Source: a virus. From it: a DNA stretch of 10,965 nt. Positions 1 through 10,965 of the stretch are shown here, in pieces. The stretch lies in UHGV virus genome UHGV-1359962; one strand, 5' to 3'. The stretch's first letter is position 1. The number at the start of each line of letters is the position of its first letter. The notes below the pieces were generated by a model. It was not told the DNA's origin and did no database searches. It saw nothing but the letters and a program-made list of their open reading frames with translations. Made by a program: the position numbers and the translations under genes.

Positions 1-1347
1 CTTACTGGTCAGTTTGGTGACATGTTAGCCCGTATTGAGGCTGGGGAGTTTCCAGCAAGTACAATTTTGCTAGTTGAGAGTATCGACCGTATAGGCCGAT
101 TAGAGCATCTTGAAACAGAAGCCTTGATGAACCGCATCTTAGGCAACGGGATAGAGATTCACACATTGCAAGATGGCCTTATCTACACAAAGGATGCTTT
201 AGCCGATGACCTTGGCATAAGCATCATCCAGCGTGTCAAAGCCTACATAGCGCATCAGGAATCTAAGCAGAAATCTTTCCGTGTTAGTCAGAAGTGGGAA
301 CAACGTGCAAAACTTGCCCTTGCTGGTGAACAACGTCTTACAAAGATGGTTCCCGGATGGATTGACCCCGATACTTTCAAGTGCAATGAACACGCTGAGA
401 CTGTAAGACTGATTTTCAAGCTGCTGCTAGATGGTGAAAGTCTGCATAACATTGCACGTCACCTACAGGCTAATAACATTAGTTCATTCTCACGGCGTAA
501 AGATGCTAACGGGTTTAGTGTTCACTCTGTGCGTACTATCTTAAGGTCAGAGACAACGATAGGCACACTACCAGCATCACAACGCAATGACCGCCCCGCT
601 ATACCGAACTACTACGAAGCCGCTATAGATGTATCAACGTTCAATAAAGCTCAAGAGATTCTCGATAAAAACCGTAAAGGCCGTACACCTGCAAGTGATA
701 ACCCATTAACGATTAACATCTTCAAGGGATTATTCCGGTGTCAGTGTGGGGCTAGTGTTCACCCTACAGGGACTAAGAATAAGTATCAGGGTGTTTATCG
801 GTGCAATAACCATCTTGACGGTCGCTGTGATGTTCAACCGTTGAAGCGTAAACCGTTTGACCGATGGATGATTGATAATTTTCTGGGGATGATTGACGTG
901 GGGAATGATGGAGAATCAGAGAGGAAGATTGCAGCGTTACAGCATGAGGTTGAAATTGTCACAGCCAGAATCAAGAAAGCTACCGCCCTACTTCTTGAGA
1001 TGGATGATATTGATGAACTAAAAATTCAGCTTAAGGAACTGAACCAGAAGCGCACAGAACTACAGACCACGATTGATAACATGAGGCGTAAGGCTTCACT
1101 CACTGATAAGGAACTACCCCAGCTTAAAGATATTGACCTGACAACTAAAGCGGGTCGTGTCGAGTGTCAATTAATTTTGTCCAAACATCTAAAAGGGCTT
1201 ACATTGGGTAAGGATACGGTAACTGTAACGCTACAGAACGACACTGAAATAACCATACCTACAGACCCGCTACCGCTAAATGATGGAACATCAATCTTTG
1301 AAATTGCTGAGAAAAATCTTTTGAATATTGACACTTTCCAACTGTAG
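1..1347 (+). CDS. Large serine recombinase (integrase/resolvase family), C-terminal ~449 codons; 5' end runs off the window start
   Basis: Frame 1 is open from position 1 to TAG at 1345-1347. Translation shows the end of a serine-recombinase catalytic domain (TILLVESIDRIGR), a recombinase-domain-like block (ETVRLIFKLLLDGESLHNIARHLQANNI ... SVHSVRTILRSETTIGTL), a Cys-rich zinc-ribbon-like motif (FRCQCGASVHPTG...YRCNNHLDGRC) and a coiled-coil-like C-terminus (ERKIAALQHEVEIVTARIKKATALLLEMDDIDELKIQLKELNQKRTELQ). Family assignment is by motif recognition, no search run. Confidence 0.85.
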   Translation, partial: LTGQFGDMLARIEAGEFPASTILLVESIDRIGRLEHLETEALMNRILGNGIEIHTLQDGLIYTKDALADDLGISIIQRVKAYIAHQESKQKSFRVSQKWEQRAKLALAGEQRLTKMVPGWIDPDTFKCNEHAETVRLIFKLLLDGESLHNIARHLQANNISSFSRRKDANGFSVHSVRTILRSETTIGTLPASQRNDRPAIPNYYEAAIDVSTFNKAQEILDKNRKGRTPASDNPLTINIFKGLFRCQCGASVHPTGTKNKYQGVYRCNNHLDGRCDVQPLKRKPFDRWMIDNFLGMIDVGNDGESERKIAALQHEVEIVTARIKKATALLLEMDDIDELKIQLKELNQKRTELQTTIDNMRRKASLTDKELPQLKDIDLTTKAGRVECQLILSKHLKGLTLGKDTVTVTLQNDTEITIPTDPLPLNDGTSIFEIAEKNLLNIDTFQL

Positions 1348-1356
1348 CAATCAATC

Positions 1357-1374
1357 AGGGGGCTATGCCCCCCT
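1357..1374. terminator. GC-rich hairpin between convergent stop codons (1347 plus, 1379 minus); candidate bidirectional terminator
   Basis: GGGGGC (1358-1363), loop TAT, GCCCCC (1367-1372). It sits exactly between the two convergent genes. The flanking T-tracts are weak on both strands, so confidence is limited. Confidence 0.4.
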
Positions 1375-1378
1375 TCTA

Positions 1379-2167
1379 TCAATATCTCTTGTTCGGATTC
1401 ACTGAGTACTTTTTAAGCTTTGAAGCTACCCGACCAGCGTTACTATTAGCATTGGTGACGTTGGTTTTTTCAGCTTCTGTTAAGTCTGAATAGTCCAGCT
1501 TCCAAGCCTTATTACATTTAATCTGAGCATCGAGAATATCATTTCTGATAGCTGGAGCGTAACCGGATACATCGCTAATATCCATTAGCTCTTTGCACGA
1601 TAGCATAGGCGCGTTATTGCGTTCAGTGGTCACGTTACCTGCATTCTTCTTACTGGTCACACCACCGTCATTAGTGGTAGCCGTTTTGCCAGTGGCAGCC
1701 GAAATATCAGTTTGCCCCACAATAGCTTTAAAGTTAATTTCCTGAAAAGTTAGCTGGATTCTCAGGCCGTTTGAAATACCAACATCTTTTGAGGCTTTAA
1801 AGCTCGTAATAATGGAATCATCAATTTTAATCCCATCTTTACAGATGACAGAAATAATCTGCTTCTGGTCACGCCAGTTTTCAAGGGTTTCGATGAAGTT
1901 TTCTACTAATTGACCCTGACGAGTTAATAATAAGCTTCCTTCATAGCCAACTACAACGACACCACTAATAGTGATTGTTCTGGGTGCTCTTTGCACATTA
2001 TCTGTGACAGTTTGCCCTGATTGCATGTTCTGTGTAGTCACCTGCATAGGACTATCAAATTCCATGTTTTCAGTTGCTGATAAGGTTAAGAAGGCATCTA
2101 CATTATCTCTTAAGTGGAAATAGATGCCATCTTTGCCACTGTAACGAATCTGATTAGAGTAAATCAT
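1379..2167 (-). CDS. Hypothetical protein, 262 aa, immediately downstream of the tape-measure-like gene; tail-associated role is possible only by position
   Basis: ATG at 2167-2165 preceded by AAGGAG (complement of 2174-2179) with 6-nt spacing. The ORF-track start at 2188 is a TTG and is less likely. Stop TGA at 1381-1379. No recognisable domain; the sequence has a hydrophobic beta-like stretch ([18 protein letters not shown]) and a Thr/Asn/Gly-rich segment. Confidence 0.6.
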
Positions 2168-2242
2168 TAAATTCTCCTTTGATTTCAAAGGCTTAGTGTA
2201 TTTTAATCATTTTTAACCAAGCCTTTGATATATAAGTATTTT

Positions 2243-2289
2243 CTCTGTTAAGCGTGAGCTACGTAAATTCTATTTTTCAGTGCGGGTAT
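2243..2289. promoter_or_regulatory. Conserved ~45-bp element (CTCTGTTAAGCGTGAGCTACGTAAA ... GGGTAT), copy upstream of the 262-aa gene
   Basis: 25-nt block identical to 4519-4543, followed by a similar ATTTTT..GGGTAT tail. Lies in the 135-bp gap between the TMP-like gene stop (2324) and the 262-aa gene start (2167). Confidence 0.45.
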
Positions 2290-2323
2290 TAACTTTGCTT
2301 TATTCACGTAGAACACCGTTAAA

Positions 2324-4504
2324 TCAATCATCTTCTGGGAATGATGAACTTAATAACGTAGCTTCTGCATATTGGTCGTAGATATTACTGCTAAAGGTCA
2401 TAAAGCTGGTTTCATCTGGTTTAATGGCAACTTCACCACCAAGTGAAACTTTCACAGGCTCCTGAATACGCTTACTTAAAGCAGAGATTTCATCCCTCAG
2501 ACCCTGAATATCTGCACTCGTTAATGATGCATCTTGTTTCATGGTAATTAATTCTGGATGATTGAATCTTGCAATATTCATTGTGGCATTGTTAAACAAT
2601 TCACCCATTGAACTAAAAATCCTGCCCCATCCTTCGTTAATCATATTCGGTTTATTAGGGTCACCAGAATACACAGGATTAAAGTCACTACCCACACCTA
2701 CCCCAGATGGATGCATATTAGCGTTTTTGACTACTTCCTGATTCATAAAATCCAGTGCTTTCTTCAATGCATATAAACCAAGAGTGACACCTCTGATTTG
2801 TGGAATCATTGAAGCTAATGCTAACGCTGTTTCATAACCGTCATCAGCATAACCAATTGCAAGAGCACTACCTACACCACCAGCTACACCTTTCAGTTTT
2901 CCACCACCTTTACCAGTAGCTACCTGACCAGCCACCTGATTAGCTCTTGTACCTAACGTTGTGATTGCTCTTGTCAGGTTCATAACCCCTGTAGTAGCAC
3001 TGAATAGTGTCTTTGCAGATAACGCTATAGCAAGACCTTTGACAAAATTGATAAAACCATCACCGACTTCATCAAGTAGTTTTCGTTTAGTGTCATCAAG
3101 GCTGTAATAGAACTTCTTAGTCTGTAGAATCCAGCCTTCAAGGTGATTGTTAAAGATACGGATGTCATCTACACCAGCTTTAAGCATGTCGATAAGTCCA
3201 CCGATAGCATCACCAGCGATAGAAGAACTCATACCCATTTCACTAAGCAGGTTACTCAGGCTGGATAAGAAGCCGTTTAGCTCATCCTGTGAACCTGAGA
3301 AGATTTTCACCATCGTATCATCCCAGTTGTTAGCCAGTTTCCCTAAAGCTGTCTGAGTGCTCTTAGCGACTTCAGCCCAGCCACCCGCTTTATCAATCAT
3401 CAAGCCCATCTGTTTAGCGACTTTAGGGAGAGTATCACTACTTAAAATCTTCCCGTTTTTCATGGCTGCATCAAGCTCTGTAGCAGTCATACCCAGTGCT
3501 TCAGCGAATAGCTTAAATGCACCAGCCATACGGTCACCTAACTGTCCACGAAGCTCTTCAGCCTGAATCTTGCCCTTAGAAGCCATCTGCTCAAAAGCTT
3601 TCAAAATGCCGTTTAGCTCGTCGTTAGAAAGCCCCATTAAGCGACTCATAGCCGTTGCATTACCAAATAGTTCCTGTGTCTGTTCCTGTGACATAGAACC
3701 CTGAGCACCTGCTGCAAACTTAGCGTAGCTTGACAGCCCTTCAGAGATATTAAGACCTGTCTTGTCTGCTAAATTTCGAATAAATACCTCAGCCTCAGAT
3801 GCTTTATCACCAAGTACAAACTTAGCGGCTCTCTGTGCGGAATCTCGTTTAAGACCTGCATTCATAATGGCCTTGTAAGCGTTAAGAGCACCCATCACAG
3901 AGTAAAATGCACCAGATAATTTAATTGCATTGCTTGCAAGATTATTAAATGCGTCGCTTGTATTATTAATGCTGGTGGTCTTTGTCTGTGACCTGAGTTT
4001 ATTCAACGTTTCACGAAGAGATTGATTTAATTTTGCAAGTTCAGCGTTAAACTTTTCACTTCCAATATTACCAGCCTTGCCGCTTAAACTGTAATATTGT
4101 GCTTTAAACATTTTAGCCATCAGCGGATTAATATCACCAAGCTTAGACATATTCACACTATGCGCTGCTGTGATTGCTCTGTTTCCGCTAATTCGTGGCT
4201 GTCTTGGTTGTTTTGGAGGATTGATAACGTCATTAACCTGACTTGTGAAACGGAAAACTCTAGTGTTTTTTGCTCTAGCTTCCAGACGGTCAAAGGTCTT
4301 ATTAAACTTCCTTTCAAGTTGCCCTAAAGAACTTGTCAGATTGCTGTCAAGTTGCTTGGTATCGACCTTAAACGCTCTATTCAAATTACGTTCAATTCTT
4401 TGTGCTGACTGCAAAGCTGCCTTTTCAACTCTTTGCAAGCCCTTAATAACGTTCTCGCTGAAGCCTAGCTCAACGATAAAACTATCAACTTTAAATTGTG
4501 CCAT
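2324..4504 (-). CDS. Phage tail tape-measure-like protein, 726 aa
   Basis: Long ORF, ATG at 4504-4502, stop TGA at 2326-2324. Predicted helical N-terminal half. The segment MSRLMGLSNDELNGILKAFEQMASKGKIQAEELRGQLGDRMAGAFKLFAEALGMTATELDAAMKNGKILSSDTLPKVAKQM resembles the conserved tape-measure domain as I recall it, and Gly-rich hydrophobic stretches (GQVATGKGGGKLKGVAGGVGSALAIGYADDG) are typical of TMPs. The SD-like GAGGTG lies 11 nt upstream of the ATG, so the exact start is uncertain. Confidence 0.75.
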   Translation of the reverse strand: MAQFKVDSFIVELGFSENVIKGLQRVEKAALQSAQRIERNLNRAFKVDTKQLDSNLTSSLGQLERKFNKTFDRLEARAKNTRVFRFTSQVNDVINPPKQPRQPRISGNRAITAAHSVNMSKLGDINPLMAKMFKAQYYSLSGKAGNIGSEKFNAELAKLNQSLRETLNKLRSQTKTTSINNTSDAFNNLASNAIKLSGAFYSVMGALNAYKAIMNAGLKRDSAQRAAKFVLGDKASEAEVFIRNLADKTGLNISEGLSSYAKFAAGAQGSMSQEQTQELFGNATAMSRLMGLSNDELNGILKAFEQMASKGKIQAEELRGQLGDRMAGAFKLFAEALGMTATELDAAMKNGKILSSDTLPKVAKQMGLMIDKAGGWAEVAKSTQTALGKLANNWDDTMVKIFSGSQDELNGFLSSLSNLLSEMGMSSSIAGDAIGGLIDMLKAGVDDIRIFNNHLEGWILQTKKFYYSLDDTKRKLLDEVGDGFINFVKGLAIALSAKTLFSATTGVMNLTRAITTLGTRANQVAGQVATGKGGGKLKGVAGGVGSALAIGYADDGYETALALASMIPQIRGVTLGLYALKKALDFMNQEVVKNANMHPSGVGVGSDFNPVYSGDPNKPNMINEGWGRIFSSMGELFNNATMNIARFNHPELITMKQDASLTSADIQGLRDEISALSKRIQEPVKVSLGGEVAIKPDETSFMTFSSNIYDQYAEATLLSSSFPEDD

Positions 4505-4518
4505 TGTTCATATTTCAC

Positions 4519-4563
4519 CTCTGTTAAGCGTGAGCTACGTAAAAAATAATTTTTGGTGGGTAT
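4519..4563. promoter_or_regulatory. Conserved ~45-bp element, copy abutting the RBS of the TMP-like gene
   Basis: CTCTGTTAAGCGTGAGCTACGTAAA at 4519-4543 is identical to 2243-2267, and the tail ATTTTTGGTGGGTAT matches ATTTTTCAGTGCGGGTAT. It ends 14 nt from the TMP start codon. Confidence 0.45.
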
Positions 4564-4595
4564 ATCTGTTCAGAAGATTTCACGTAGCACACATA

Positions 4596-4638
4596 CAAAA
4601 AAGGGAGAAACTACCGAATAATATCGATAATCTCTCCC
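4596..4638 (-). terminator. Candidate rho-independent terminator (minus strand) after the 71-aa gene
   Basis: On the minus strand GGGAGAGA (complement of 4638-4631) pairs with TTTCTCCC (complement of 4610-4603) around a 20-nt loop, followed by TTTTTTGT (complement of 4602-4595). The loop is long, so the call is tentative. Confidence 0.4.
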
Positions 4639-4686
4639 CGTGTTATAGATTCGATAGAACCTATCTCATACACCCAACCAATTCTT

Positions 4687-4902
4687 TTAATGCATGACAA
4701 GATAATGTAGTTCCGTTTCACCTATGATTTGAGCATCAGAAGGAATACGGTCGATACACCATTTTGGAATCTTGCGTGTTTTTGGTTTGCGTGAGGTGAT
4801 AATTTGATGTTTGGTTTTAATTCTTAAGACTGGCTTAGTTTGTAACTTTAAGTTTTCACAAACAGACTTAATAGTTTCATAGCGTTCTGTTAAATCAATC
4901 AT
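4687..4902 (-). CDS. Small basic hypothetical protein, 71 aa
   Basis: ATG at 4902-4900 preceded by GAGGTGA with short spacing. It starts 22 nt after the stop of the 234-aa gene (operon arrangement). Lys/Arg-rich middle (KTKHQIITSRKPKTRKIPKW). No domain recognised. Confidence 0.5.
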   Translation of the reverse strand: MIDLTERYETIKSVCENLKLQTKPVLRIKTKHQIITSRKPKTRKIPKWCIDRIPSDAQIIGETELHYLVMH

Positions 4903-4924
4903 TCATCACCTCACATATGCATAA

Positions 4925-5629
4925 TTAAACAGCCTTGCTAAATTCTCGTGGAACACTCAGAAAATCATTGAAGCTGATAATCTGTGCCAACTCTTGACGG
5001 TACTCCTTAGCCAGCGCTTGATGGTCACTAATCAGCTTAGCCAGTCTTGATTTCAGCAAATTAATCTCATTTTCTCTTGCTTTCATCAGTTTCTCTTTGG
5101 CAATTTCTTCAAGCTCAGCTTGTGATTTATCAGCAACAATTAGAGACAGTCGATGTGGTGCTCTGACAGCTCTTTCTGTACGAACAACTCTTTGACCTTC
5201 TGGTAAATCTGCAATCACTTTACCAATCTCTACAGGGTCATACCCCCAACCGTCACGGTCTAGTCGAGAGAAATAAGCATAAGAATTGGTTTGAAGCTCC
5301 ATCAAAATAGCCATTTCGTCAATTTCGTCTTCAAGTTTGGACTGAATTTTCTCGTAAACACTTCTCATTGCTTCTTGAGAGTCTCGAAGGTCTTTGAAAT
5401 ATTTGCGTTGCAGCTTCAGTTTCAAATCAAGCTCACATTCCTCATTCATCGAAAAATCAATTTCAACTCTTGGAATCTCGATTGGTTCTGGTGGAATATA
5501 TGGACCTTTATTTACTTCGTGCGATTCCCGCCAAGCTCTATCAAAAGATTCACGCAAAGTTAATTCGTGAATATCAAGTGCACTTGGTCTGTTCTCAACA
5601 ATCATTTCGTGTTCATTACGAATGGACAT
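4925..5629 (-). CDS. Acidic coiled-coil-like hypothetical protein, 234 aa
   Basis: ATG at 5629-5627 with AGAGGAA upstream; stop TAA at 4927-4925. Charged, heptad-like regions (EAMRSVYEKIQSKLEDEIDEMAILMEL; ELEEIAKEKLMKARENEINLLKSRLAKLISDHQALAKEYRQELAQI). No family recognised. Confidence 0.7.
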   Translation of the reverse strand: MSIRNEHEMIVENRPSALDIHELTLRESFDRAWRESHEVNKGPYIPPEPIEIPRVEIDFSMNEECELDLKLKLQRKYFKDLRDSQEAMRSVYEKIQSKLEDEIDEMAILMELQTNSYAYFSRLDRDGWGYDPVEIGKVIADLPEGQRVVRTERAVRAPHRLSLIVADKSQAELEEIAKEKLMKARENEINLLKSRLAKLISDHQALAKEYRQELAQIISFNDFLSVPREFSKAV

Positions 5630-5877
5630 TAATATTTTCCTCTTCTAAGATAATTTATGTTTCAGTTTTTAAAAAGCACACCTGACAGCCTACGAACTTA
5701 GAAGAGACTTAAAAGCGTTTGCCAAGTATGCTTTTTAAAAGCTGAAAAAAGCCCTAAACATAGGTGATTCGGATATTCATGGAATCATCCTCATCTGTGA
5801 AGGGCTTTGAAGGTTTGCTTTAACGTTAACGAAGTTTCAGGAAAAACTTTCTTTAAAAGCTCTGTTTAAAAACTCTT

Positions 5878-5907
5878 AAAGAAAACGCCCTAATCATGAG
5901 TTAGGGC
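5878..5907 (-). terminator. Rho-independent terminator (minus strand) downstream of the small-gene operon
   Basis: 7-bp stem GCCCTAA (5887-5893) / TTAGGGC (5901-5907) with a 7-nt loop. On the minus strand the hairpin is followed by GTTTTCTTT (complement of 5886-5878). Confidence 0.5.
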
Positions 5908-6208
5908 AAAGCTGTAAGGGTTCAATAATGAATGATTAAGCACTTTTTGATATATAGCCTATCTAGTGGGCTAAATAGGCCATGTAGCGAAAAGCATTGC
6001 ACCTTTCAGAATAACTATCCCTAGATGTAGATGGAATTGTTGAAAGAAATAAGAGAGAATTGCTCTCCCATACTTAAAATTATGGCATATTTAAGGTTAT
6101 TTGTCAACAGCTTTTTAACAGATTGGTAACATTAATTCTTATTTACCGTGTTACCTACCCAGCAACCAACAAATAAACCCAAAGCTGTCCAAGCAATTAT
6201 TAAGCCCA

Positions 6209-6532
6209 TTAATGCACCACCTTCGAATCCGTAACCAAAATATTGTCAGCGTACAAAATTGCTATAGCTGCCTTGAGATATCTTTCAGGGCTAACGCTGT
6301 ATCGGTTCGTTTGCTCGATAACCAATCTTTTCATGTTGCTGTCTTTAATTGGTAGCATCATTCGAGGCTCGTTAAACTCCACCAACTGAATAAAATCTTC
6401 AATTGTTTCTGAGTTATCAGCCATTAGCCTTAACAGCCTGTCAAAGTCAATGCTAACACCTACATCAGTGAAAGCCTGAATCATCATAGCGGTGTCGCTA
6501 TCAACGAAAATCTGTAATTCGTAATTGTTCAT
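6209..6532 (-). CDS. Hypothetical protein, 107 aa
   Basis: ATG at 6532-6530 (MNNYELQIF...) preceded by AAGGAG (complement of 6542-6547). The ORF-track start at 6565 is a TTG 11 codons upstream and less likely. Stop TAA at 6211-6209. Confidence 0.6.
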   Translation of the reverse strand: MNNYELQIFVDSDTAMMIQAFTDVGVSIDFDRLLRLMADNSETIEDFIQLVEFNEPRMMLPIKDSNMKRLVIEQTNRYSVSPERYLKAAIAILYADNILVTDSKVVH

Positions 6533-6550
6533 TTTTAAAATCTCCTTTTT

Positions 6551-6673
6551 ACCAGACCTCCTCAATCGCTCTGTAACGAGCTAAACAGTCTTTTTCAGGG
6601 GTAGCCTGTACAGTGGTATTACCCACCCTAAAATAAGGTAGTTTTTTGCGTTAGAATGCGATTGAGAGCGTCT
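6551..6673. repeat. Copy 1 of a ~100-120 bp paired element with conserved 19-nt and 21-nt end blocks
   Basis: TCAATCGCTCTGTAACGAG at 6562-6580 and AGAATGCGATTGAGAGCGTCT at 6653-6673 are identical to 8230-8248 and 8298-8318. The interior is similar but diverged. Lies in the gap between the HNH-like gene and the 107-aa gene. Confidence 0.6.
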
Positions 6674-6687
6674 GAGAAGCTGTTTTT

Positions 6688-6975
6688 CTAATTTCTCTTA
6701 AAGTCTCGGACTTGCATAAGATTTTTTGGTCTGGTATCGGCTCTGTTACCATTTCGATGGATAATTTGCTTGTTGGATTGATAGCCATGATAAAGGAACC
6801 AGACAACATATTTCACGTAGAAAGTATATCGGCCTATATTAAATGTTTTGTTGCCGTAGTCGTCGGTATTTATCGTGACTGACTCTCCATCAGACCAGTA
6901 CAGGGAATCACTGGATTCATCATAGATAAGGTGTTCTGTAAAATATCGTCTAACATCTTCATGCCAAGGTTTCAT
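6688..6975 (-). CDS. HNH_3-like (homing-endonuclease-type HNH) small protein, 95 aa
   Basis: ATG at 6975-6973 with strong GGAGG 4-5 nt upstream. Motifs LIYDESSDSLYWSDGESV and IHRNGNRADTRPKNL resemble the HNH_3-type nuclease signature (His ... GN ... N-L) as I recall it. Shorter than typical members. Its start overlaps the upstream gene stop (ATGA). Confidence 0.55.
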   Translation of the reverse strand: MKPWHEDVRRYFTEHLIYDESSDSLYWSDGESVTINTDDYGNKTFNIGRYTFYVKYVVWFLYHGYQSNKQIIHRNGNRADTRPKNLMQVRDFKRN

Positions 6976-7187
6976 AAAACCTCCTCACCCCAATAACCTA
7001 ATTCAATCTTGTGACGCTCAAACCATTCCGGTTTAACTGCTGTTTTCAGTACTTCATTTGGGCCAATGGCTTTAATGAAAATATCTTTTGAGTTATGGAT
7101 GTCACCGAATCCGTTTCCTTTAATCAGGAGGTCGGAGATGTGGCGAATCATTTTATCTGTGTGGTATTCAAAGGTAACGCATAGCAT
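6972..7187 (-). CDS. Hypothetical protein, 71 aa
   Basis: ATG at 7187-7185 with GGAGG 4 nt upstream. Start overlaps the stop of the upstream 92-aa gene by 1 nt (TAATG) and its stop overlaps the HNH-like gene start (ATGA), indicating translational coupling. Confidence 0.5.
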   Translation of the reverse strand: MLCVTFEYHTDKMIRHISDLLIKGNGFGDIHNSKDIFIKAIGPNEVLKTAVKPEWFERHKIELGYWGEEVL

Positions 7188-7465
7188 TAAACCTCCATCG
7201 CTAACTTGTGAATCTTAAGACTCAATAGACGGGCAATATCAATTTTAAAGCCGTTAAGTCCCTTCAAAGTATCTAAAGCGTCCTGAGTAATTCGGATGTG
7301 TTTACGACCTTTAGAGACTGGATATCTAAGTAAATCCGACTCAGTAACCTCTTTAGCAATTGCAAGCTGCATAACAGTCTGATGAGGCAAGTTAGTAGCT
7401 CGTTTAATTCTGGCAAGCTCGTTAAAAGCTTCCTCTGAAATACGGGTCAAAGTGTGTTTCTTCAT
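7187..7465 (-). CDS. Hypothetical protein, 92 aa
   Basis: ATG at 7465-7463 with AGAGGAA upstream, directly adjacent to the stop of the 185-aa gene. No domain recognised with confidence. Confidence 0.55.
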   Translation of the reverse strand: MKKHTLTRISEEAFNELARIKRATNLPHQTVMQLAIAKEVTESDLLRYPVSKGRKHIRITQDALDTLKGLNGFKIDIARLLSLKIHKLAMEV

Positions 7466-8023
7466 TTAAAATTCCTCTGTAACTAAATACGGGTCAAACT
7501 CGAAATCTGGTTGCTCGTTTTCCATTGGCTCAATATTTCCAACGGCAATATGATGCTCAACAACACCAATTAACTTTGCGCACATTACAGCAAGCAAAGC
7601 GCAATATTTATCGCTTGGTAATTCATGGCTAAGTCTGGTTGCTTGACGCTGAAGATAATTTGTCACGGTAGCTGAGTTAATTTCATCAAGATTCTTTAGA
7701 ATATAAAATAGCTTTCTGTTGTATTTTGGGTGACCTTCGCTTCTGCAAAATCCGATAATTACATCTTCAAACTTGCGTGGTAATTGCTCGTAAGAATCAA
7801 CGTTAGCCAAATAATTTTTGATGCTGTTCTGGGTGCTCTTTCTGGTTGACATATAACGACTCCTCGGTGTAATTGCCCGAATTACTTCGTCAATGCCTTT
7901 GCGTTCTGCTCTGGTGAACTTGGGTACTTCGTGGCTGGTGGGGTTGTTTGTGTAAGCGTAGGAGTTGTGCTTGTTGCGTTCTCTTGATGCCTGAAGCATC
8001 GCTCTAAATTCTCTGTCGTTCAT
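7466..8023 (-). CDS. Hypothetical protein, 185 aa, first gene of the minus-strand small-gene operon
   Basis: ATG at 8023-8021 downstream of a candidate sigma70-type promoter. The SD-like AAGGA is 11 nt upstream; an out-of-frame ATG at 8027-8025 is better spaced, so the start is somewhat uncertain. Confidence 0.6.
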   Translation of the reverse strand: MNDREFRAMLQASRERNKHNSYAYTNNPTSHEVPKFTRAERKGIDEVIRAITPRSRYMSTRKSTQNSIKNYLANVDSYEQLPRKFEDVIIGFCRSEGHPKYNRKLFYILKNLDEINSATVTNYLQRQATRLSHELPSDKYCALLAVMCAKLIGVVEHHIAVGNIEPMENEQPDFEFDPYLVTEEF

Positions 8024-8071
8024 TCATAAGCCAGTCCTTATAATTGTTAATTCTCTGTTAACTTATATACA

Positions 8072-8100
8072 ATACTAGCATTTTCAAAGACTAATGTCAA
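8072..8100 (-). promoter_or_regulatory. Candidate sigma70-type promoter for the minus-strand operon
   Basis: On the minus strand: -35 TTGACA (complement of 8100-8095), 17-nt spacer, -10 TAGTAT (complement of 8077-8072). Confidence 0.5.
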
Positions 8101-8107
8101 GCATTTT

Positions 8108-8137
8108 TTAACATTTCATTAACATCTGTGGTATAAT
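8108..8137 (+). promoter_or_regulatory. Candidate plus-strand promoter with extended -10, divergent from the operon promoter
   Basis: -35-like TTAACA (8108-8113), 18-nt spacer, TG at 8129-8130 and -10 TATAAT at 8132-8137 (TGgTATAAT). Confidence 0.55.
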
Positions 8138-8219
8138 GGTTTTATGGGGAGAGTAAAATATGAGGCGTGGCTATGAGGTATCAACTATCGAGAATGGCCG
8201 CATGGTTATTGCATTGCAC

Positions 8220-8318
8220 ACAGACCTCTTCAATCGCTCTGTAACGAGTTAAATGGCCTCTTCAGGTCAACTCATAAGGTCAGGTACTTTTTGTGTCAGA
8301 ATGCGATTGAGAGCGTCT
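8220..8318. repeat. Copy 2 of the paired element, within the leader of the membrane-protein gene
   Basis: Blocks at 8230-8248 and 8298-8318 are identical to copy 1. Located between the plus-strand promoter and the ATG at 8333. Confidence 0.6.
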
Positions 8319-8332
8319 TACAAGGAAATTTA

Positions 8333-8521
8333 ATGGTAAATCTCCCTCCTGAACTGGGGTCACCTGATGTATGGGCTGGTGGAGGTGTTGGACTTATTGC
8401 GGGTCTGCTGCTTCGCTATTTCATCGTCAGAGTGTTTATCGTGTTCAGATTGTTTGGTCGTGAATGGTCGTTTGACCTCAAGGACAGGACCAGAACAGAC
8501 AACCACACAGAACCCCGCTAA
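8333..8521 (+). CDS. Small membrane protein, 62 aa, one predicted transmembrane helix
   Basis: ATG at 8333 with AAGGA 6 nt upstream; stop TAA at 8519-8521. Translation MVNLPPELGSPDVWAGGGVGLIAGLLLRYFIVRVFIVFRLFGREWSFDLKDRTRTDNHTEPR has one hydrophobic helix followed by a charged C-terminus. Preferred over the alternative frames at 8291 and 8367 because of the RBS and protein-like composition. Confidence 0.5.
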   Translation: MVNLPPELGSPDVWAGGGVGLIAGLLLRYFIVRVFIVFRLFGREWSFDLKDRTRTDNHTEPR

Positions 8522-8534
8522 ACTCCCTTCAAAA

Positions 8535-8575
8535 CCCCTATACCATCTCGTACAGGGGTATCTTTAGCATTTTGT
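8535..8575 (+). terminator. Candidate terminator after the membrane-protein gene
   Basis: Stem CCCCTATAC (8535-8543) / GTACAGGGG (8550-8558) with one mismatch, then a T-rich tail TATCTTTAGCATTTTGTG. Confidence 0.35.
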
Positions 8576-8635
8576 GCTATCTATTAAAAAACGGCTTGAC
8601 AGAACCGGAAAGCTGTATCTATCAAGTATTCACCT

Positions 8636-8816
8636 CTCTGACAGTAATTTCTAAAAGTTCTTATTTTTCAATGAGTTGTAATTAGCCAATATAAAGGACT
8701 GACAAGACCCTTCACAATTAACTCTGTAACCTTAACAGTAATTTCTAAAAATGCTTATTTTTCAATAAGTTGTAATCACCCAATATATAAGACTGTCCAG
8801 TACCTTCACAGATAAC
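8636..8816. repeat. Two tandem direct repeat units of about 86 and 95 bp
   Basis: Unit 1 (8636-8721) and unit 2 (8722-8816) align along their length. Shared blocks include CAGTAATTTCTAAAA, CTTATTTTTCAAT, AGTTGTAAT and GACTG.C.AG..CCTTCACA..TAAC. Confidence 0.7.
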
Positions 8817-9603
8817 TTCAAGCCCTCTTAACCGCCCCACTAATCGGGAGAAGAGCGATAACCCCAGAGAGGGAAGCTCCCTTCTTAATCGGCCTCCTAA
8901 CCAGTCTTTACAAACCTTGTTCAAGGTAATCACAATAGTTTTTCTTCCCTCGGTTTCCTGTGTTCCTCGGTTTATCTATTGAGACTTGAAAGACCTCTGT
9001 AAGTGCTCTCTTAGCGAGAGAAAAATCATTCATAGTGACCCCAAGCGAAGTGCCCCTCTAAAAAGATTTTTTAGCTATTTTGCTTAAAACCATATCAAAC
9101 GATACATTTTATTGATTTAGGTCAAAGACAAAAACATTGACAAAATGGTATGATTGTTCACATGACCTTACTTAACAGATTCTTAAGAGCTTTGAAACGA
9201 CCTACTTAACAAGGTCACTACCTCTGGTCTTATCGTTCCCTTCTTTCTAGGTAGTCATCTGTTAAGAACTTTTCAGTTTTATTCTTAAGATAATTGTTAA
9301 GATGATACTCTCCCTTCGGGTTATATCGTATCTCTTCCCCCGTTAAACACTCCTTCCTAACAACTTCATAGTTATCTGTCAAGTACCTTTGAAGATTCTA
9401 TCAAGACCTCTAAATCTGACCTGATATAGATGCTGTGAAGGCATGTTCTCTAGGTCTGTGTAGCTTACTTAGTGGGAAGAGAGGGTGATACATGAGAAAG
9501 AACCCCTCCTACTTAAAAGAATTATTTGACATTATTGTGATGGTTATTTAAGATGCAACTGTACAGACACCTTCATCGGTTTCTCTACACCTTCCTATGG
9601 CTT

Positions 9604-9664
9604 GGTCTGGCTAGGTAGGGTGGGGTCTGGTTAGGTAAGGTGGGGTATGGTTAAGTGTGGGTGG
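9604..9664. repeat. Three tandem ~20-bp iterons
   Basis: GGTCTGGCTAGGTAGGGTGG (9604-9623), GGTCTGGTTAGGTAAGGTGG (9624-9643), GGTATGGTTAAGTGTGGGTGG (9644-9664). Confidence 0.75.
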
Positions 9665-9696
9665 ATTGTCGTAGCCACGTTAAAAATCGACTTATA

Positions 9697-9720
9697 GGGA
9701 CTCTTTCGGGAGTCCTTTTT
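9697..9720 (+). terminator. Rho-independent-type terminator hairpin with UUCG loop
   Basis: GGACTCT (9698-9704) pairs with GGAGTCC (9709-9715) around the loop TTCG (9705-9708), followed by TTTTT (9716-9720). Confidence 0.55.
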
Positions 9721-10791
9721 AGTTTGTATAAAATCTGTACAGTAACTTTTCAGATTCTGAAAATTTTTATAAAAAAATAATCAGGCCTCTTCTAAGTCTC
9801 TTCAACCAAATCTTTCAAAAATATCTACACTCAATTGATGGCTGTTAAGTACCCCAGATTCACGATATAGCACCCCCTTTGCAAAAGCAGTTAAAATATC
9901 TATAACCAACTATTGACTTTCTTCATAGCATCTGTTAAGTCCACCTCAAGAAACCTTCATCACACTTCAAAGCATCTATCAAGAAGGTTTAACCTATCAA
10001 TAGCTGTAACATTTTGTAGTTCTGTGAAGTCCTATCCAGTTTTCTCTGTAACAGACACAAACTTCTGCGACCTTATGTATCAATGACTTAGAATACATGC
10101 TCTCAAGGTTCTGTATAGTCTCTTATCTTCAAATACACAAAACCCTTATAAATCAGTACTGATACGTATACAGTTCGTTTTTAACATAATGGCTGTTTTA
10201 CGCACTAATCGTGTTCTACATGAAATCTGTATAGATATTAAGGTGTCTGTAAGTGATTTTTTAAGAAGGGACTACGAAGATTTGACAAGGTAACTATGAG
10301 GTTGATTCCTAGAACAACCGAATCAACTATAACCATCACTTTTCAATATTCACGCAGGATATCGTTAAGTTTCTTGATAGTTACACCATGTGACCAACTG
10401 CATAGATAGCGTTATATACTCCTGTATATATCACTTTTCTAGGAGTCTGGAGAGGGACGACTAACACGATACAGTTTACCCTGAAAAGAGACTTCACAGA
10501 TTCTTTATATATTTCAATAAGTTATGCTAAAAAGAGACTATACCGATACTGCATAGAATCTGTGTAAAACTGCTTAGATACTTGGGAAAATGCCTTTAAA
10601 TTGCATAGTCATAGGGGTTGGAACAAGCCCAACTTCACCTGATATTGTCCTGTAATTAACAGGTTTCTTAGAAAACCGAATAGACTTCATTCAAGGGTCA
10701 TTGTATTGTAGCTATTCGGCATTGTAGCATTAGCCATAACGTTTATAAGTTCATCTTTAAATGATAATCAATTGCATGGGAGTTTATCACC

Positions 10792-10965
10792 ATGAGACAC
10801 GTAATTACATACCTTCGGTACAGTTCAGCCATACAAGGCGCTGAAGGTGCTGATTCAACCAGACGACAAAATGAGCTATTCAAACAGTGGTTAAGGAAGA
10901 ATAGCGATGCTCAGGTAGTTGCGTCTTTCAGTGATGAAGGGTTGAGTGGTTACAAAGGTAAGCAC
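10792..10965 (+). CDS. Serine recombinase N-terminal catalytic segment (58 codons); 3' end runs off the window end; probably the same gene as 1-1347
   Basis: ATG at 10792 preceded by GGGAG (10779-10783). Translation MRHVITYLRYSSAIQGAEGADSTRRQNELFKQWLRKNSDAQVVASFSDEGLSGYKGKH carries the serine-recombinase N-terminal signature (Y-x-R-x-SS-x-x-Q with the presumed catalytic Ser, later D-x-G-x-SG). The frame ends exactly on a codon boundary at 10965. Confidence 0.7.
   Translation, partial: MRHVITYLRYSSAIQGAEGADSTRRQNELFKQWLRKNSDAQVVASFSDEGLSGYKGKH

What the first reader, a model, noticed from the sequence alone, without database searches (positions are those of the whole stretch)
10792..10965. 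Serine recombinase gene spans the window junction: the sequence is probably circular
The last 58 codons of the window are a serine-recombinase N-terminus and end exactly on a codon boundary at 10965. Position 1 opens in frame 1 with LTGQFGDMLARIEAGEFPASTILLVESIDRIGR, the expected continuation of the same catalytic domain (the D-x-G-x-SG ... hydrophobic ... DR-x-x-R block). Joined across the junction this gives a single large serine recombinase of about 507 aa. The simplest reading is a closed circle (excised element, plasmid-like replicon or circular assembly) or a circularly permuted record.
Basis: partly seen in the sequence, partly recalled or inferred. Interest (0 to 1): 0.7.

Follow-up and report, generated by a model that had tools for sequence, protein, structure and literature searches.

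The report
Excised circular phage-satellite-like island of E. coli
The window is one complete copy of an 11-kb mobile element caught as a closed circle and cut open inside its integrase gene; it normally sits at the start of the E. coli tonB gene and looks like an undescribed parasite (satellite) of Felix O1-type phages.

Summary
ATG 10792 opens 58 codons that run to 10965. Frame 1 from base 1 continues to a stop at 1345-1347. Joined, they give a 506-aa large serine recombinase (not 507), with one Resolvase domain crossing the junction. The same 506-aa protein is encoded uninterrupted on E. coli chromosomes.

The circle is real in the data. Two contigs of run SRR5677787 (8081 and 2944 bp, 100% identical) tile the circularised window with 30-bp overlaps, and 8081+2944-60 = 10965. 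The junction and an attP site lie inside the larger contig.

attP has a 13-bp core (10691-10703) that overlaps the tonB start codon. The empty attB is contiguous in 5193 of 5426 complete E. coli genomes. 225 genomes carry the integrated element, and none has attP.

The cargo points to Felix O1-type phages (Felixounavirus):
- a tape measure protein and a tail-tube initiator homologous to theirs;
- phage-like GC (39.7%);
- a gene-poor 2.7-kb region with short copies of Felixounavirus non-coding DNA, one from inside the phage's direct terminal repeat.

The best reading is an excised satellite-like island. The circle and integration are shown. Helper dependence and packaging are inferred. I found no description of this family.

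The parts
10792..10965 (+). 5' part of the large serine recombinase gene. It covers codons 1-58 and holds R9 and the nucleophile S11.
   Evidence: The upstream GGGAG ribosome-binding site is seen.
1..1347 (+). 3' part of the same gene (codons 59-506 plus stop). It holds R88 and R91, the Recombinase domain, the zinc ribbon and the coiled-coil region.
   Evidence: A profile of the alignment hits A118 integrase 4kis (E=1.6e-16) and the PhiC31 integrase N-terminal domain 9ibl (E=1.2e-10).
10676..10719 (.). attP. It is an imperfect inverted repeat, CCGAATAG...CTATTCGG (14 of 22 half-site positions symmetric), centred on G10697/T10698.
   Evidence: The left arm equals the attR-side end of integrated copies and the right arm equals the attL-side end.
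10691..10703 (.). 13-bp core TCAAGGGTCATTG, shared by attP, attB, attL and attR. On the other strand it reads CAATGACCCTTGA, which is positions -2 to +11 of tonB.
1379..2188 (-). Tail-tube initiator (Dit-like, 269 aa). It is 75% identical overall to phage garuso gp119, the gene directly downstream of the phage TMP gene, as TI gp18 follows TMP gp17 in the Bas63 structure. The N-terminal ~180 aa are nearly identical and the C-terminal ~80 aa are diverged.
   Evidence: The role is taken from PMC12609058.
2324..4504 (-). Tape measure protein, 726 aa. It is a mosaic relative of the Felixounavirus TMP (735 aa, 34% identity). The N-terminal 45 aa, the centre and the C-terminal tip are conserved.
4687..5629 (-). 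Two conserved genes of unknown function (71 aa and 234 aa). The 234-aa protein is predicted to be largely long helices.
6209..8023 (-). Leftward gene set: 185 aa, 92 aa, 71 aa, 95-aa HNH_3 endonuclease-like, and 118 aa. All but the HNH protein have no known family.
8044..8137 (.). Divergent strong sigma-70-like promoters. Leftward: TTGACA-17-TAGTAT, ahead of the 185-aa gene. Rightward: TTAACA-18-TATAAT with TG.
   Evidence: sequence.
8024..10690 (.). Gene-poor 2.7-kb region with no ORF over 76 aa. It is conserved at 86-88% in other E. coli copies, where several records annotate nothing. It is enriched in TTAACA-type motifs.
9173..9265 (-). Segment homologous to the interior (positions 245-333) of the 581-bp direct terminal repeat of Felixounavirus genomes.
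9600..9691 (+). Segment homologous (76-84%) to an unannotated intergenic region of 106 Felixounavirus records (garuso 5652-5719). It lies inside a candidate ~165-nt small RNA (about 9561-9725).
9735..9774 (-). 41-nt match (83%) to sequence 73-113 nt beyond the right boundary of the phage terminal repeat.

Best explanation
The window is one full unit (10,965 bp) of an integrative mobile element in its excised, circular form. A circular assembly was linearised by a cut that happens to fall inside the integrase gene.

Shown:
- The integrase is a 506-aa large serine recombinase.
- Its gene starts 88 bp downstream of the attP core.
- attP (10676-10719, core 10691-10703) recombines with an attB whose 13-bp core overlaps the start codon of chromosomal tonB. 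This gives attL next to tonB and the recombinase gene, and attR next to yciI.

Inferred:
- The crossover is at the central GT.
- Excision needs a directionality factor, possibly supplied by a phage.

Nature of the element (inferred, about 60% likely): it is a phage satellite of virulent Felix O1-type phages (Felixounavirus). It encodes no capsid, terminase, sheath or tube genes. It does carry its own tape measure protein and tail-tube initiator, which are derived from and still recombining with those phages. It has phage-like GC content. Its long gene-poor region contains short copies of Felixounavirus non-coding DNA, including part of the phage's direct terminal repeat and the TTAACA-type repeats that mark the boundaries of that repeat.

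The proposed life cycle is: a Felixounavirus infects the cell; the element excises by attL x attR; it is replicated and then packaged by the phage terminase, which recognises the repeat-like sites; it leaves in virions whose tails contain the element's own tape measure and tube initiator; and it integrates at tonB in the next cell.
For: Circle:
- Two SRR5677787 contigs, both 100% identical to the window, tile the circularised window with 30-bp overlaps at both joints, and 8081+2944-60 = 10965.
- The junction and attP are internal to the 8081-bp contig.
- A 13-bp repeat cannot close a k=31 graph falsely (the k value and this step are my own inference from the 30-bp overlaps, not a tool result).

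One gene:
- Pfam gives a single Resolvase stretch over residues 4-162.
- The joined protein is identical to uninterrupted genes in L008, L011 and L012.
- 506-aa homologues cover it fully.

att sites:
- The arms of attP match attR and attL of integrated copies.
- The reconstructed attB is contiguous in 5193 of 5426 complete E. coli genomes.
- 225 genomes have the tonB-side junction. Every such match starts at the core and none carries attP.
- The same site is used in a Citrobacter genome.

Recombinase family:
- Y7, R9, S11, Q15, D48, S52, R88 and R91 are invariant in the alignment.
- The profile hits A118 and PhiC31 integrases.

Phage link:
- The tube initiator is 75% identical to garuso gp119, and 92-96% identical in nucleotide sequence over 1634-2143 to more than 200 Felixounavirus records.
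- The TMP is homologous.
- GC is 39.7% in the window, 38.9% in garuso and 47% in the chromosomal flanks.
- Window 9173-9265 matches the inside of the annotated 581-bp terminal repeat of Pr103Blw, and matches at two places per record in phages deposited with both repeats.
- Seven other tonB elements carry matches to the same junction region. The four other loci tested (an unrelated satellite L023, Citrobacter L017, and yecE-type L018 and L019) and the chromosomal flanks show none.
- CTTAACAG occurs 9 times against 0.5 expected in the window, 23 against 5.0 in garuso, and 1 against 0.5 in E. coli flanks.
- The motif sits at both boundaries of the phage repeat.
- A Felixounavirus 608-bp terminal repeat has been shown experimentally (PMC4837284).
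Against: - No experiment links the element to any phage.
- No replication initiator, terminase subunit, repressor or directionality factor was recognised.
- The matches to phage non-coding DNA are short (41-95 nt, 75-87% identity) and are not collinear with the phage junction.
- attP was not found in viral, metagenome or species-representative genome collections, so packaged or excised copies are documented in only one run.
- The nature of that run is unknown.
- The window was probably built from those same reads, so the two contigs are not an independent replicate.
- The contig breaks at 7250-7279 and 10164-10193 imply other DNA in the sample that shares those 30-mers.
Confidence: 0.85

Rival explanations
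1. The attP junction comes from two or more tandem integrated copies (attL-element-attP-element-attR), or from a replicating concatemer, rather than from a free monomeric circle. The window would then be one repeat unit.
For: A de Bruijn graph closes in the same way for tandem copies. Many genomes hold more than one related element (median 2 places per genome).
Against: None of the 225 complete genomes with the tonB junction has attP. The 8081-bp contig runs through attP without the branch that attL and attR k-mers would create. That last point rests on my own reasoning about the assembler.
Confidence: 0.08
2. The element is a self-replicating plasmid-like circle that only occasionally integrates.
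For: It was assembled as a circle. It has a long non-coding region with tandem 94-bp repeats (8641-8817) that could be an origin.
Against: There is no match in 72,556 plasmid records. All 892 matching places in E. coli lie on chromosomes and none on plasmids. No replication or partition protein was recognised.
Confidence: 0.04
3. The element is mobile through its recombinase but is not packaged. It is instead a defence or decoy island. Its tape measure and tube-initiator variants would poison tail assembly of infecting Felixounavirus, and the phage-like non-coding pieces would be leftovers of recombination.
For: The tube initiator keeps a near-identical tube domain but has a diverged C-terminal extension. 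In Bas63 that extension contacts the baseplate spacer. Tail-assembly interference is a known defence strategy (PMC11364771, listed). No packaging gene was found.
Against: No PADLOC defence family matches. The matches to the terminal-repeat junction recur across variants of the element that differ elsewhere. The element is found across E. coli and Citrobacter, and its recombinase and marker proteins also occur in Shigella and Salmonella, while the site is empty in most strains. That pattern needs a transfer route. Defence and satellite roles are not mutually exclusive.
Confidence: 0.25
4. The window is a linear fragment with two separate recombinase genes at its ends.
For: None beyond the raw layout.
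Against: There is one Resolvase domain across the junction. The joined protein is identical to uninterrupted genes. The DNA is contiguous in all related loci.
Confidence: 0.005

Closest known systems
Large serine recombinases (serine integrases) of phages and islands, e.g. A118/LI, PhiC31, Bxb1
   Same: Same domain order: Resolvase, Recombinase, zinc ribbon, coiled coil. The catalytic Ser and Arg residues are conserved. attP is short and imperfectly palindromic, with a small core shared with attB. The integrase gene lies next to attP.
   Different: It is only distantly related in sequence. phmmer against PDB found nothing, and a profile was needed. The target is the tonB start codon. No directionality factor is known.
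PLE of Vibrio cholerae (satellite of the virulent myovirus ICP1)
   Same: Both are small chromosomal islands integrated by a large serine recombinase, associated with a strictly virulent myovirus, and showing recent sequence exchange with that phage. PLE biology is taken from the papers listed and section 24 of PMC10055350.
   Different: There is no RepA_N initiator or other PLE gene. The host and helper are different. Unlike PLE as I know it (my own knowledge, not tested here), this element carries tail genes (TMP and tube initiator).
[quoted passage not shown] 2023, PMC10448857)
   Same: The layout is strikingly similar. The integrase is followed by a baseplate-type gene and a TMP on the opposite strand, then small genes, about 2 kb without genes, and (in many variants of our element) a small resolvase near the far end. 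A subset of those satellites also uses a serine recombinase.
   Different: No nucleotide or protein similarity was detected. Our element has no major capsid or decoration protein and no RepA_N. It integrates at tonB, not at a tRNA or lysR site. Its tail genes match Felixounavirus, not Justusliebigvirus.
PICMI (minimalist satellites of virulent vibriophages, PMC10803314)
   Same: Both are small, lack capsid-remodelling genes and are associated with virulent phages. Packaging as a concatemer in full-size heads would be the analogous solution (abstract seen).
   Different: No shared genes were tested or found. Packaging here is pure inference.
PICI, cfPICI and P4-like satellites of Enterobacteria
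   Same: Same host range, similar size, and integration with short att repeats.
   Different: The element has no tyrosine integrase, AlpA, Pri-Rep, terS, capsid, sid, psu or delta genes.

Membership tests
Large serine recombinase (serine integrase) | N-terminal resolvase-type catalytic domain with the nucleophilic Ser and conserved Arg residues | tested here: met
   PF00239 matches residues 4-162, E=5.9e-16. R9, S11, R88 and R91 are invariant in 15 homologues. The profile hits the PhiC31 integrase N-terminal domain, E=1.2e-10.
Large serine recombinase (serine integrase) | C-terminal Recombinase domain plus zinc ribbon and coiled coil | tested here: met
   PF07508 matches 187-282 and PF13408 matches 298-340. 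C305, C307 and C326 are invariant. The profile aligns over positions 184-479 to the A118 integrase C-terminal domain 4kis, E=1.6e-16.
Large serine recombinase (serine integrase) | Short attP and attB with a small common core and imperfect dyad symmetry | tested here: met
   The core is 13 bp. attP half-sites match at 14 of 22 positions. The empty attB is found in 5193 genomes.
Large serine recombinase (serine integrase) | Catalysis of attP x attB recombination, with excision dependent on a directionality factor | not testable with these tools
   Only the products are seen: attL and attR in 225 genomes, and attP in one run.
Phage satellite (generic) | Integrated island with att sites that excises as a circle | tested here: met
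Phage satellite (generic) | Lacks most virion and lysis genes but shows specific homology to one phage group | tested here: met
   Only TMP and tube-initiator genes are present, and both are Felixounavirus-like.
Phage satellite (generic) | Carries the helper's packaging signal | tested here: inconclusive
   There are short matches to the inside and flank of the Felixounavirus terminal repeat, plus shared TTAACA-type repeats. Their function is untested.
Phage satellite (generic) | Helper-dependent induction, packaging and transfer | not testable with these tools
   This needs infection experiments.
PLE | RepA_N replication initiator with a cognate origin, and PLE core genes | tested here: not met
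   No Pfam, PHROG or NCBIfam hit for any such gene.
PICI / cfPICI / P4-like | Tyrosine integrase, AlpA, Pri-Rep or alpha primase, terS, capsid or sid/psu/delta genes | tested here: not met
   No hits were found, and the integrase is a serine recombinase.
Barth et al. E. coli TMP/baseplate satellites | TMP and baseplate gene next to the integrase | tested here: met
   compared with L023.
Barth et al. E. coli TMP/baseplate satellites | Major capsid and decoration proteins, RepA_N initiator, and sequence relatedness to the published set | tested here: not met
   There are no capsid or RepA_N hits. blastn and tblastn against the NGF1 member found nothing. The tonB/yciI site and our accession numbers are absent from their tables.

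The most novel reading that the evidence does not exclude
This is the first member, caught in its excised form, of an undescribed family of satellites that parasitise strictly virulent Felix O1-type phages. Such satellites would replace the phage's tape measure and tube initiator with their own and mimic the phage's terminal-repeat packaging signals. They would integrate through a serine integrase exactly at the tonB start codon, so that TonB expression in about 4% of E. coli strains is uncoupled from its Fur-controlled promoter.
Probability: 0.45. Interest if true: 0.8.

Novelty: new variant of a known kind. Interest (0 to 1): 0.6.

Why it matters
The split gene itself is ordinary. It is the signature of a circular assembly cut at an arbitrary base, and it tells an annotator to rotate the record.

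The element behind it is more interesting. Felix O1-type phages are used for Salmonella typing, biocontrol and therapy, and they are regarded as clean, strictly lytic agents. A satellite present in 4-10% of complete E. coli genomes (and in Citrobacter, with related marker and recombinase proteins in Shigella and Salmonella) would matter in three ways if it hijacks or blocks them. It would affect their efficacy. It would give them a route for gene transfer. It would offer a new model for how satellites exploit tail assembly and terminal-repeat packaging.

The recombinase, with its defined 44-bp attP and a conserved chromosomal attB, is also a candidate genome-engineering tool. Insertion at the tonB start codon predicts a testable change in iron-regulated TonB expression and in sensitivity to TonB-dependent phages and colicins.

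Tried and rejected
- Exact-pattern scans for the 24-nt attP junction found nothing in viral contigs, metagenome contigs or species-representative genomes.
- The recombinase protein found only one partial locus in IMG/VR and one Citrobacter locus in GTDB representatives.
- phmmer of the recombinase against PDB found nothing. A profile was needed.
- The 234-aa and 185-aa proteins gave no Pfam, PHROG, NCBIfam, PADLOC, PDB or phage tblastn match. Their AlphaFold models were too poor (pLDDT 57.5 and 44.0) to justify fold searches.
- Rfam found only a chance microRNA hit.
- The repeated 25-nt and 14-nt motifs upstream of the TMP and tube-initiator genes, and the duplicated 130-nt leader, have no counterpart in phage garuso.
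- A shared GTTACAGAGCG motif with the Barth satellite proved unconvincing.
- The UAB_Phi87 record does not start at its physical end, so it could not be used to place the terminal repeat. Pr103Blw was used instead.
- A literature search for the run accession, and searches for any Felixounavirus-satellite link, found nothing.
- The fit between 8 x 10,965 = 87.7 kb and Felixounavirus genome sizes was considered. It is not used as evidence because other copies of the element differ in length.

Full report
OBSERVATION. The last 174 bases of the window (10792-10965) start with ATG, preceded by a GGGAG ribosome-binding site, and encode MRHVITYLRYSSAIQ...LSGYKGKH (58 codons). Frame 1 from base 1 reads LTGQFGDMLARIEAGEFPASTILLVESIDRIGR... 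and stays open until the stop at 1345-1347. Joined, they give 506 residues plus a stop codon. Pfam finds one Resolvase domain over residues 4-162 (E=5.9e-16), which crosses the junction at residue 58/59. It is followed by Recombinase (187-282) and Zn_ribbon_recom (298-340). PHROG 95 'integrase' matches residues 1-470 in one stretch (E=1e-78). The window has no terminal direct repeat.

ONE GENE, AND NEIGHBOURING ENDS. A database search returned 506-aa proteins at 88-95% identity that cover 100% of the joined query. In the alignment the junction context SGYKGKH|LTGQFG has no gap, and Y7, R9, S11, Q15, D48, S52, R88 and R91 are invariant. The catalytic Ser and Arg of one active site are therefore split between the two ends of the window. 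The joined protein is 100% identical to uninterrupted genes on two NCBI E. coli contigs (L008 of 190 kb, and L011) and on a Logan contig (L012). At the DNA level, window 10691-10965 is followed directly by window 1 onward in every related chromosomal locus.

THE CIRCLE. Two Logan contigs of sequencing run SRR5677787 are 100% identical to the window. L012 (8081 bp) covers 10164-10965 and then 1-7279. L020 (2944 bp) covers 7250-10193. They overlap by 30 bp at both joints, and 8081+2944-60 = 10965. The window junction lies 802 bases inside L012. The window was probably derived from this same assembly graph, so this shows what the raw data support rather than giving an independent replicate. The direct repeat that flanks integrated copies is only 13 bp. 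A graph with 30-bp overlaps cannot be closed falsely through it (my inference). Both joint 30-mers are unique in the window, so the contig breaks must come from other DNA in the sample. That remains unexplained.

ATTACHMENT SITES. In E. coli chromosomes a roughly 90% identical element lies between tonB and yciI, with the intact recombinase gene next to tonB. Window sequence up to 10703 matches the yciI-side end (attR). Window sequence from 10691 matches the tonB-side end (attL). The 13-bp overlap TCAAGGGTCATTG is present at both ends of integrated copies. The window therefore contains attP. It is flanked by an imperfect inverted repeat (CCGAATAG...CTATTCGG, 14 of 22 half-site positions symmetric) centred on GT at 10697-10698. 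An attB rebuilt from the two chromosomal flanks is contiguous in 5193 of 5426 complete E. coli genomes. 225 genomes carry the tonB-recombinase junction. Every one of those matches begins at the first base of the core, and none contains attP. A Citrobacter genome carries the element at the same site. No plasmid record matches, and all E. coli matches are chromosomal. The window is therefore the excised form, not a chromosomal segment or a known plasmid.

THE RECOMBINASE FAMILY. A profile built from the alignment hits the C-terminal domain of the A118 (LI) serine integrase (4kis, E=1.6e-16, profile positions 184-479). It also hits the N-terminal catalytic domain of PhiC31 integrase (9ibl, E=1.2e-10, positions 48-153, which span the junction). 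All sequence-testable criteria of a large serine recombinase are met. Activity and directionality are not testable here. A second branch of the element family carries a recombinase only 35% identical and sits next to yecE, yecD and aspS, so the integration module has been swapped.

WHAT THE ELEMENT CARRIES. All the remaining ORFs of 90 aa or more lie on the minus strand.
- ORF 1379-2188 is a Dit-like protein (PF21821, phrog_3721). It is 75% identical to gp119 of Felixounavirus garuso. The first ~180 residues are almost identical and the last ~80 are diverged.
- Nucleotides 1634-2143 are 92-96% identical to more than 200 Felixounavirus records. This indicates recent exchange.
- In the Bas63 cryo-EM structure, the gene that follows the TMP gene (gp18, after TMP gp17) — the position gp119 holds in garuso — encodes the tail-tube initiator. 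That protein is a tube-like domain plus a ~100-residue C-terminal extension running beside the baseplate spacer (PMC12609058).
- ORF 2324-4504 is a 726-aa tape measure protein. It is 34% identical to the 735-aa phage protein. The N-terminal 45 residues, the centre and the C-terminal tip are conserved, and the tip is the part that contacts the hub in Bas63.
- Gene order (TMP, then tube initiator) is the same as in the phage.
- The other genes (71, 234, 118, 95 HNH_3, 71, 92 and 185 aa) have no informative family, defence or structure match.
- The 185-aa protein family has 1089 clusters, with members named from E. coli, Shigella, Salmonella and E. fergusonii.
- GC is 39.7%, against 38.9% for garuso and 47% for the chromosomal flanks.

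THE GENE-POOR REGION AND PHAGE NON-CODING DNA. Bases 8024-10690 hold no ORF over 76 aa and no family hit. Even so, the region is conserved at 86-88% in other genomes, where several records annotate nothing there. Three short pieces match Felixounavirus non-coding DNA.
- (a) Window 9173-9265 matches 151 phage records. In records deposited with both physical ends there are two matches per record, at positions about 245-330 from the end. In Pr103Blw the match lies inside the annotated 581-bp 'short direct terminal repeat'.
- (b) Window 9735-9774 matches sequence 73-113 nt beyond the right boundary of that repeat.
- (c) Window 9600-9691 matches an unannotated intergenic segment in 106 Felixounavirus records.

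Seven other tonB-type elements carry matches to the same terminal-repeat junction, including variants that lack piece (a). The other four loci tested showed none: the unrelated satellite L023, Citrobacter L017, and yecE-type L018 and L019. The chromosomal flanks within the positive loci also gave no match. The octamer CTTAACAG occurs 9 times in the window against 0.5 expected, 23 times in garuso against 5.0 expected (7 of them in the gene-free region that holds the repeat), and once in E. coli flanks against 0.5 expected. The phage repeat begins GCCCCCTTAACATTTTCTTAACAATTTCTTAACAA and ends ...GTTGTTAAGGGCTACC. A Felixounavirus terminal repeat of 608 bp was demonstrated experimentally for UAB_Phi87 (PMC4837284). 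These matches are short and not collinear with the phage. They are a lead for packaging-signal mimicry, not proof.

MECHANISM. What is shown:
- a circular unit of 10,965 bp;
- one intact serine-integrase gene next to attP;
- the precise attB, attL and attR sites;
- the occupied and empty sites in nature.

What is inferred:
- integration by attP x attB with crossover at the central GT;
- excision that needs a directionality factor, which was not identified;
- helper dependence on Felixounavirus;
- use of the element's tape measure and tube initiator in the tails that carry it, or alternatively as poisons of phage tail assembly;
- packaging through the repeat-like sites, possibly as concatemers.

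I put the circle-plus-integrase reading at about 0.95 and the Felixounavirus-satellite reading at about 0.6.

COMPARISON WITH KNOWN SYSTEMS. The element works like PLE of Vibrio cholerae in using a serine integrase and being tied to a virulent myovirus, but it has none of PLE's genes. Its layout closely parallels the putative E. coli satellites reported by Barth et al. (PMC10448857). Those have an integrase, baseplate gene, TMP, small genes, about 2 kb of gene-free DNA and a small resolvase. They belong to phages of the Stephanstirmvirinae and also encode capsid proteins and RepA_N. They integrate at tRNA or lysR sites and share no detectable sequence with this element. PICI, cfPICI and P4 hallmarks are absent. 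Four full-text searches found no paper linking Felixounavirus to a satellite. Absence from that library does not prove the family is undescribed.

VERDICT. The split gene is a linearisation artefact of a genuinely circular molecule. The molecule is the excised form of a tonB-targeting, serine-integrase island that is best read as a new variant of phage satellite associated with Felix O1-type phages.

Noticed in passing
window 10691-10791 (P' arm); L008 14640-14830; L001 attR 15784-15950: Integration replaces everything upstream of position -2 of tonB. The native promoter region and the Fur-box-like TGAAATGATTATGACTTCA end up at attR, pointing into the element. tonB is now preceded by element DNA that carries two TACAAT boxes (one of them as TGCTACAAT) and an in-frame ATG 12 codons upstream (MANATMPNSYNT-MTLD...). 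Gene callers call TonB as 250-251 aa rather than 239 aa in four of the lysogen loci (L004, L007, L009, L011). TonB regulation is probably altered in lysogens.
   Followed up: partly
window 9526-9725 (+): A candidate ~165-nt small RNA. It has a TTGACA-17-TAAGAT promoter at 9526-9554 and a 9-bp GC-rich terminator hairpin at 9696-9717 followed by a T run. The fold energy is -58.5 kcal/mol (z = -3.4). Its G/U-rich repeats (GGUCUGG...) are homologous to an intergenic segment of 106 Felixounavirus genomes, in the direction of phage transcription.
   Followed up: partly
window 6553-6679 vs 8221-8324; 2243-2316 vs 4519-4592: There are duplicated regulatory leaders. A ~130-nt region is repeated ahead of the 118-aa and 185-aa genes. 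A 25-nt motif (TTTACGTAGCTCACGCTTAACAGAG) plus a 14-nt motif (GTGTTCTACGTGAA) is repeated ahead of the TMP and tube-initiator genes. Neither is found in phage garuso.
   Followed up: partly
window 8641-8817: Two tandem 94-bp-spaced repeats (83 nt, 84% identical) lie in the gene-poor region. They could be iterons or an origin, or twin promoters.
   Followed up: no
window 7250-7279 and 10164-10193: The two SRR5677787 contigs break at these 30-mers. Both are unique in the window, so the sample must hold other DNA that shares them, possibly a second related element with a different 7.3-10.2 kb module.
   Followed up: partly
L002 13977-14546; L004 3894-4442; L005 3643-5392; L001 13516-14184: The region between the 185-aa gene and attR is a variable cargo slot. 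Other copies hold a small serine resolvase or invertase (182-191 aa), a Dam-type N6-adenine methyltransferase, a 322-aa unknown protein, or AP2/HNH endonucleases. The window's copy has none of these.
   Followed up: no
L018 7170-8693; L019 6701-8224: A sister branch of the family has the same backbone (185-aa and 92-aa genes, TMP, Dit-like gene) but a 507-aa recombinase only 35% identical. It is inserted next to yecE, yecD and aspS. The integration module has been swapped.
   Followed up: partly
L017 12419-16459 (Citrobacter sp. ANG330); hits H27, H31, H33: Copies of the element are often hit by insertion sequences. An IS21-like pair interrupts the TMP gene in Citrobacter, and IS3 and ISEc12 insertions appear in E. 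coli copies.
   Followed up: no
L001 9194-9904 (WP_404999199.1), homologue of window 4925-5629: PGAP labels the 234-aa protein's homologue 'transposase' in several genomes. No Pfam, NCBIfam or PHROG hit supports that name. The protein is predicted to be mostly long helices.
   Followed up: partly
L023 13281-15297 (NZ_CP016007.1): The unrelated Barth-type satellite also has a ~2-kb stretch without annotated genes, followed by a small resolvase near its far att site. This mirrors the layout seen here and may be a common design of these E. coli satellites.
   Followed up: no
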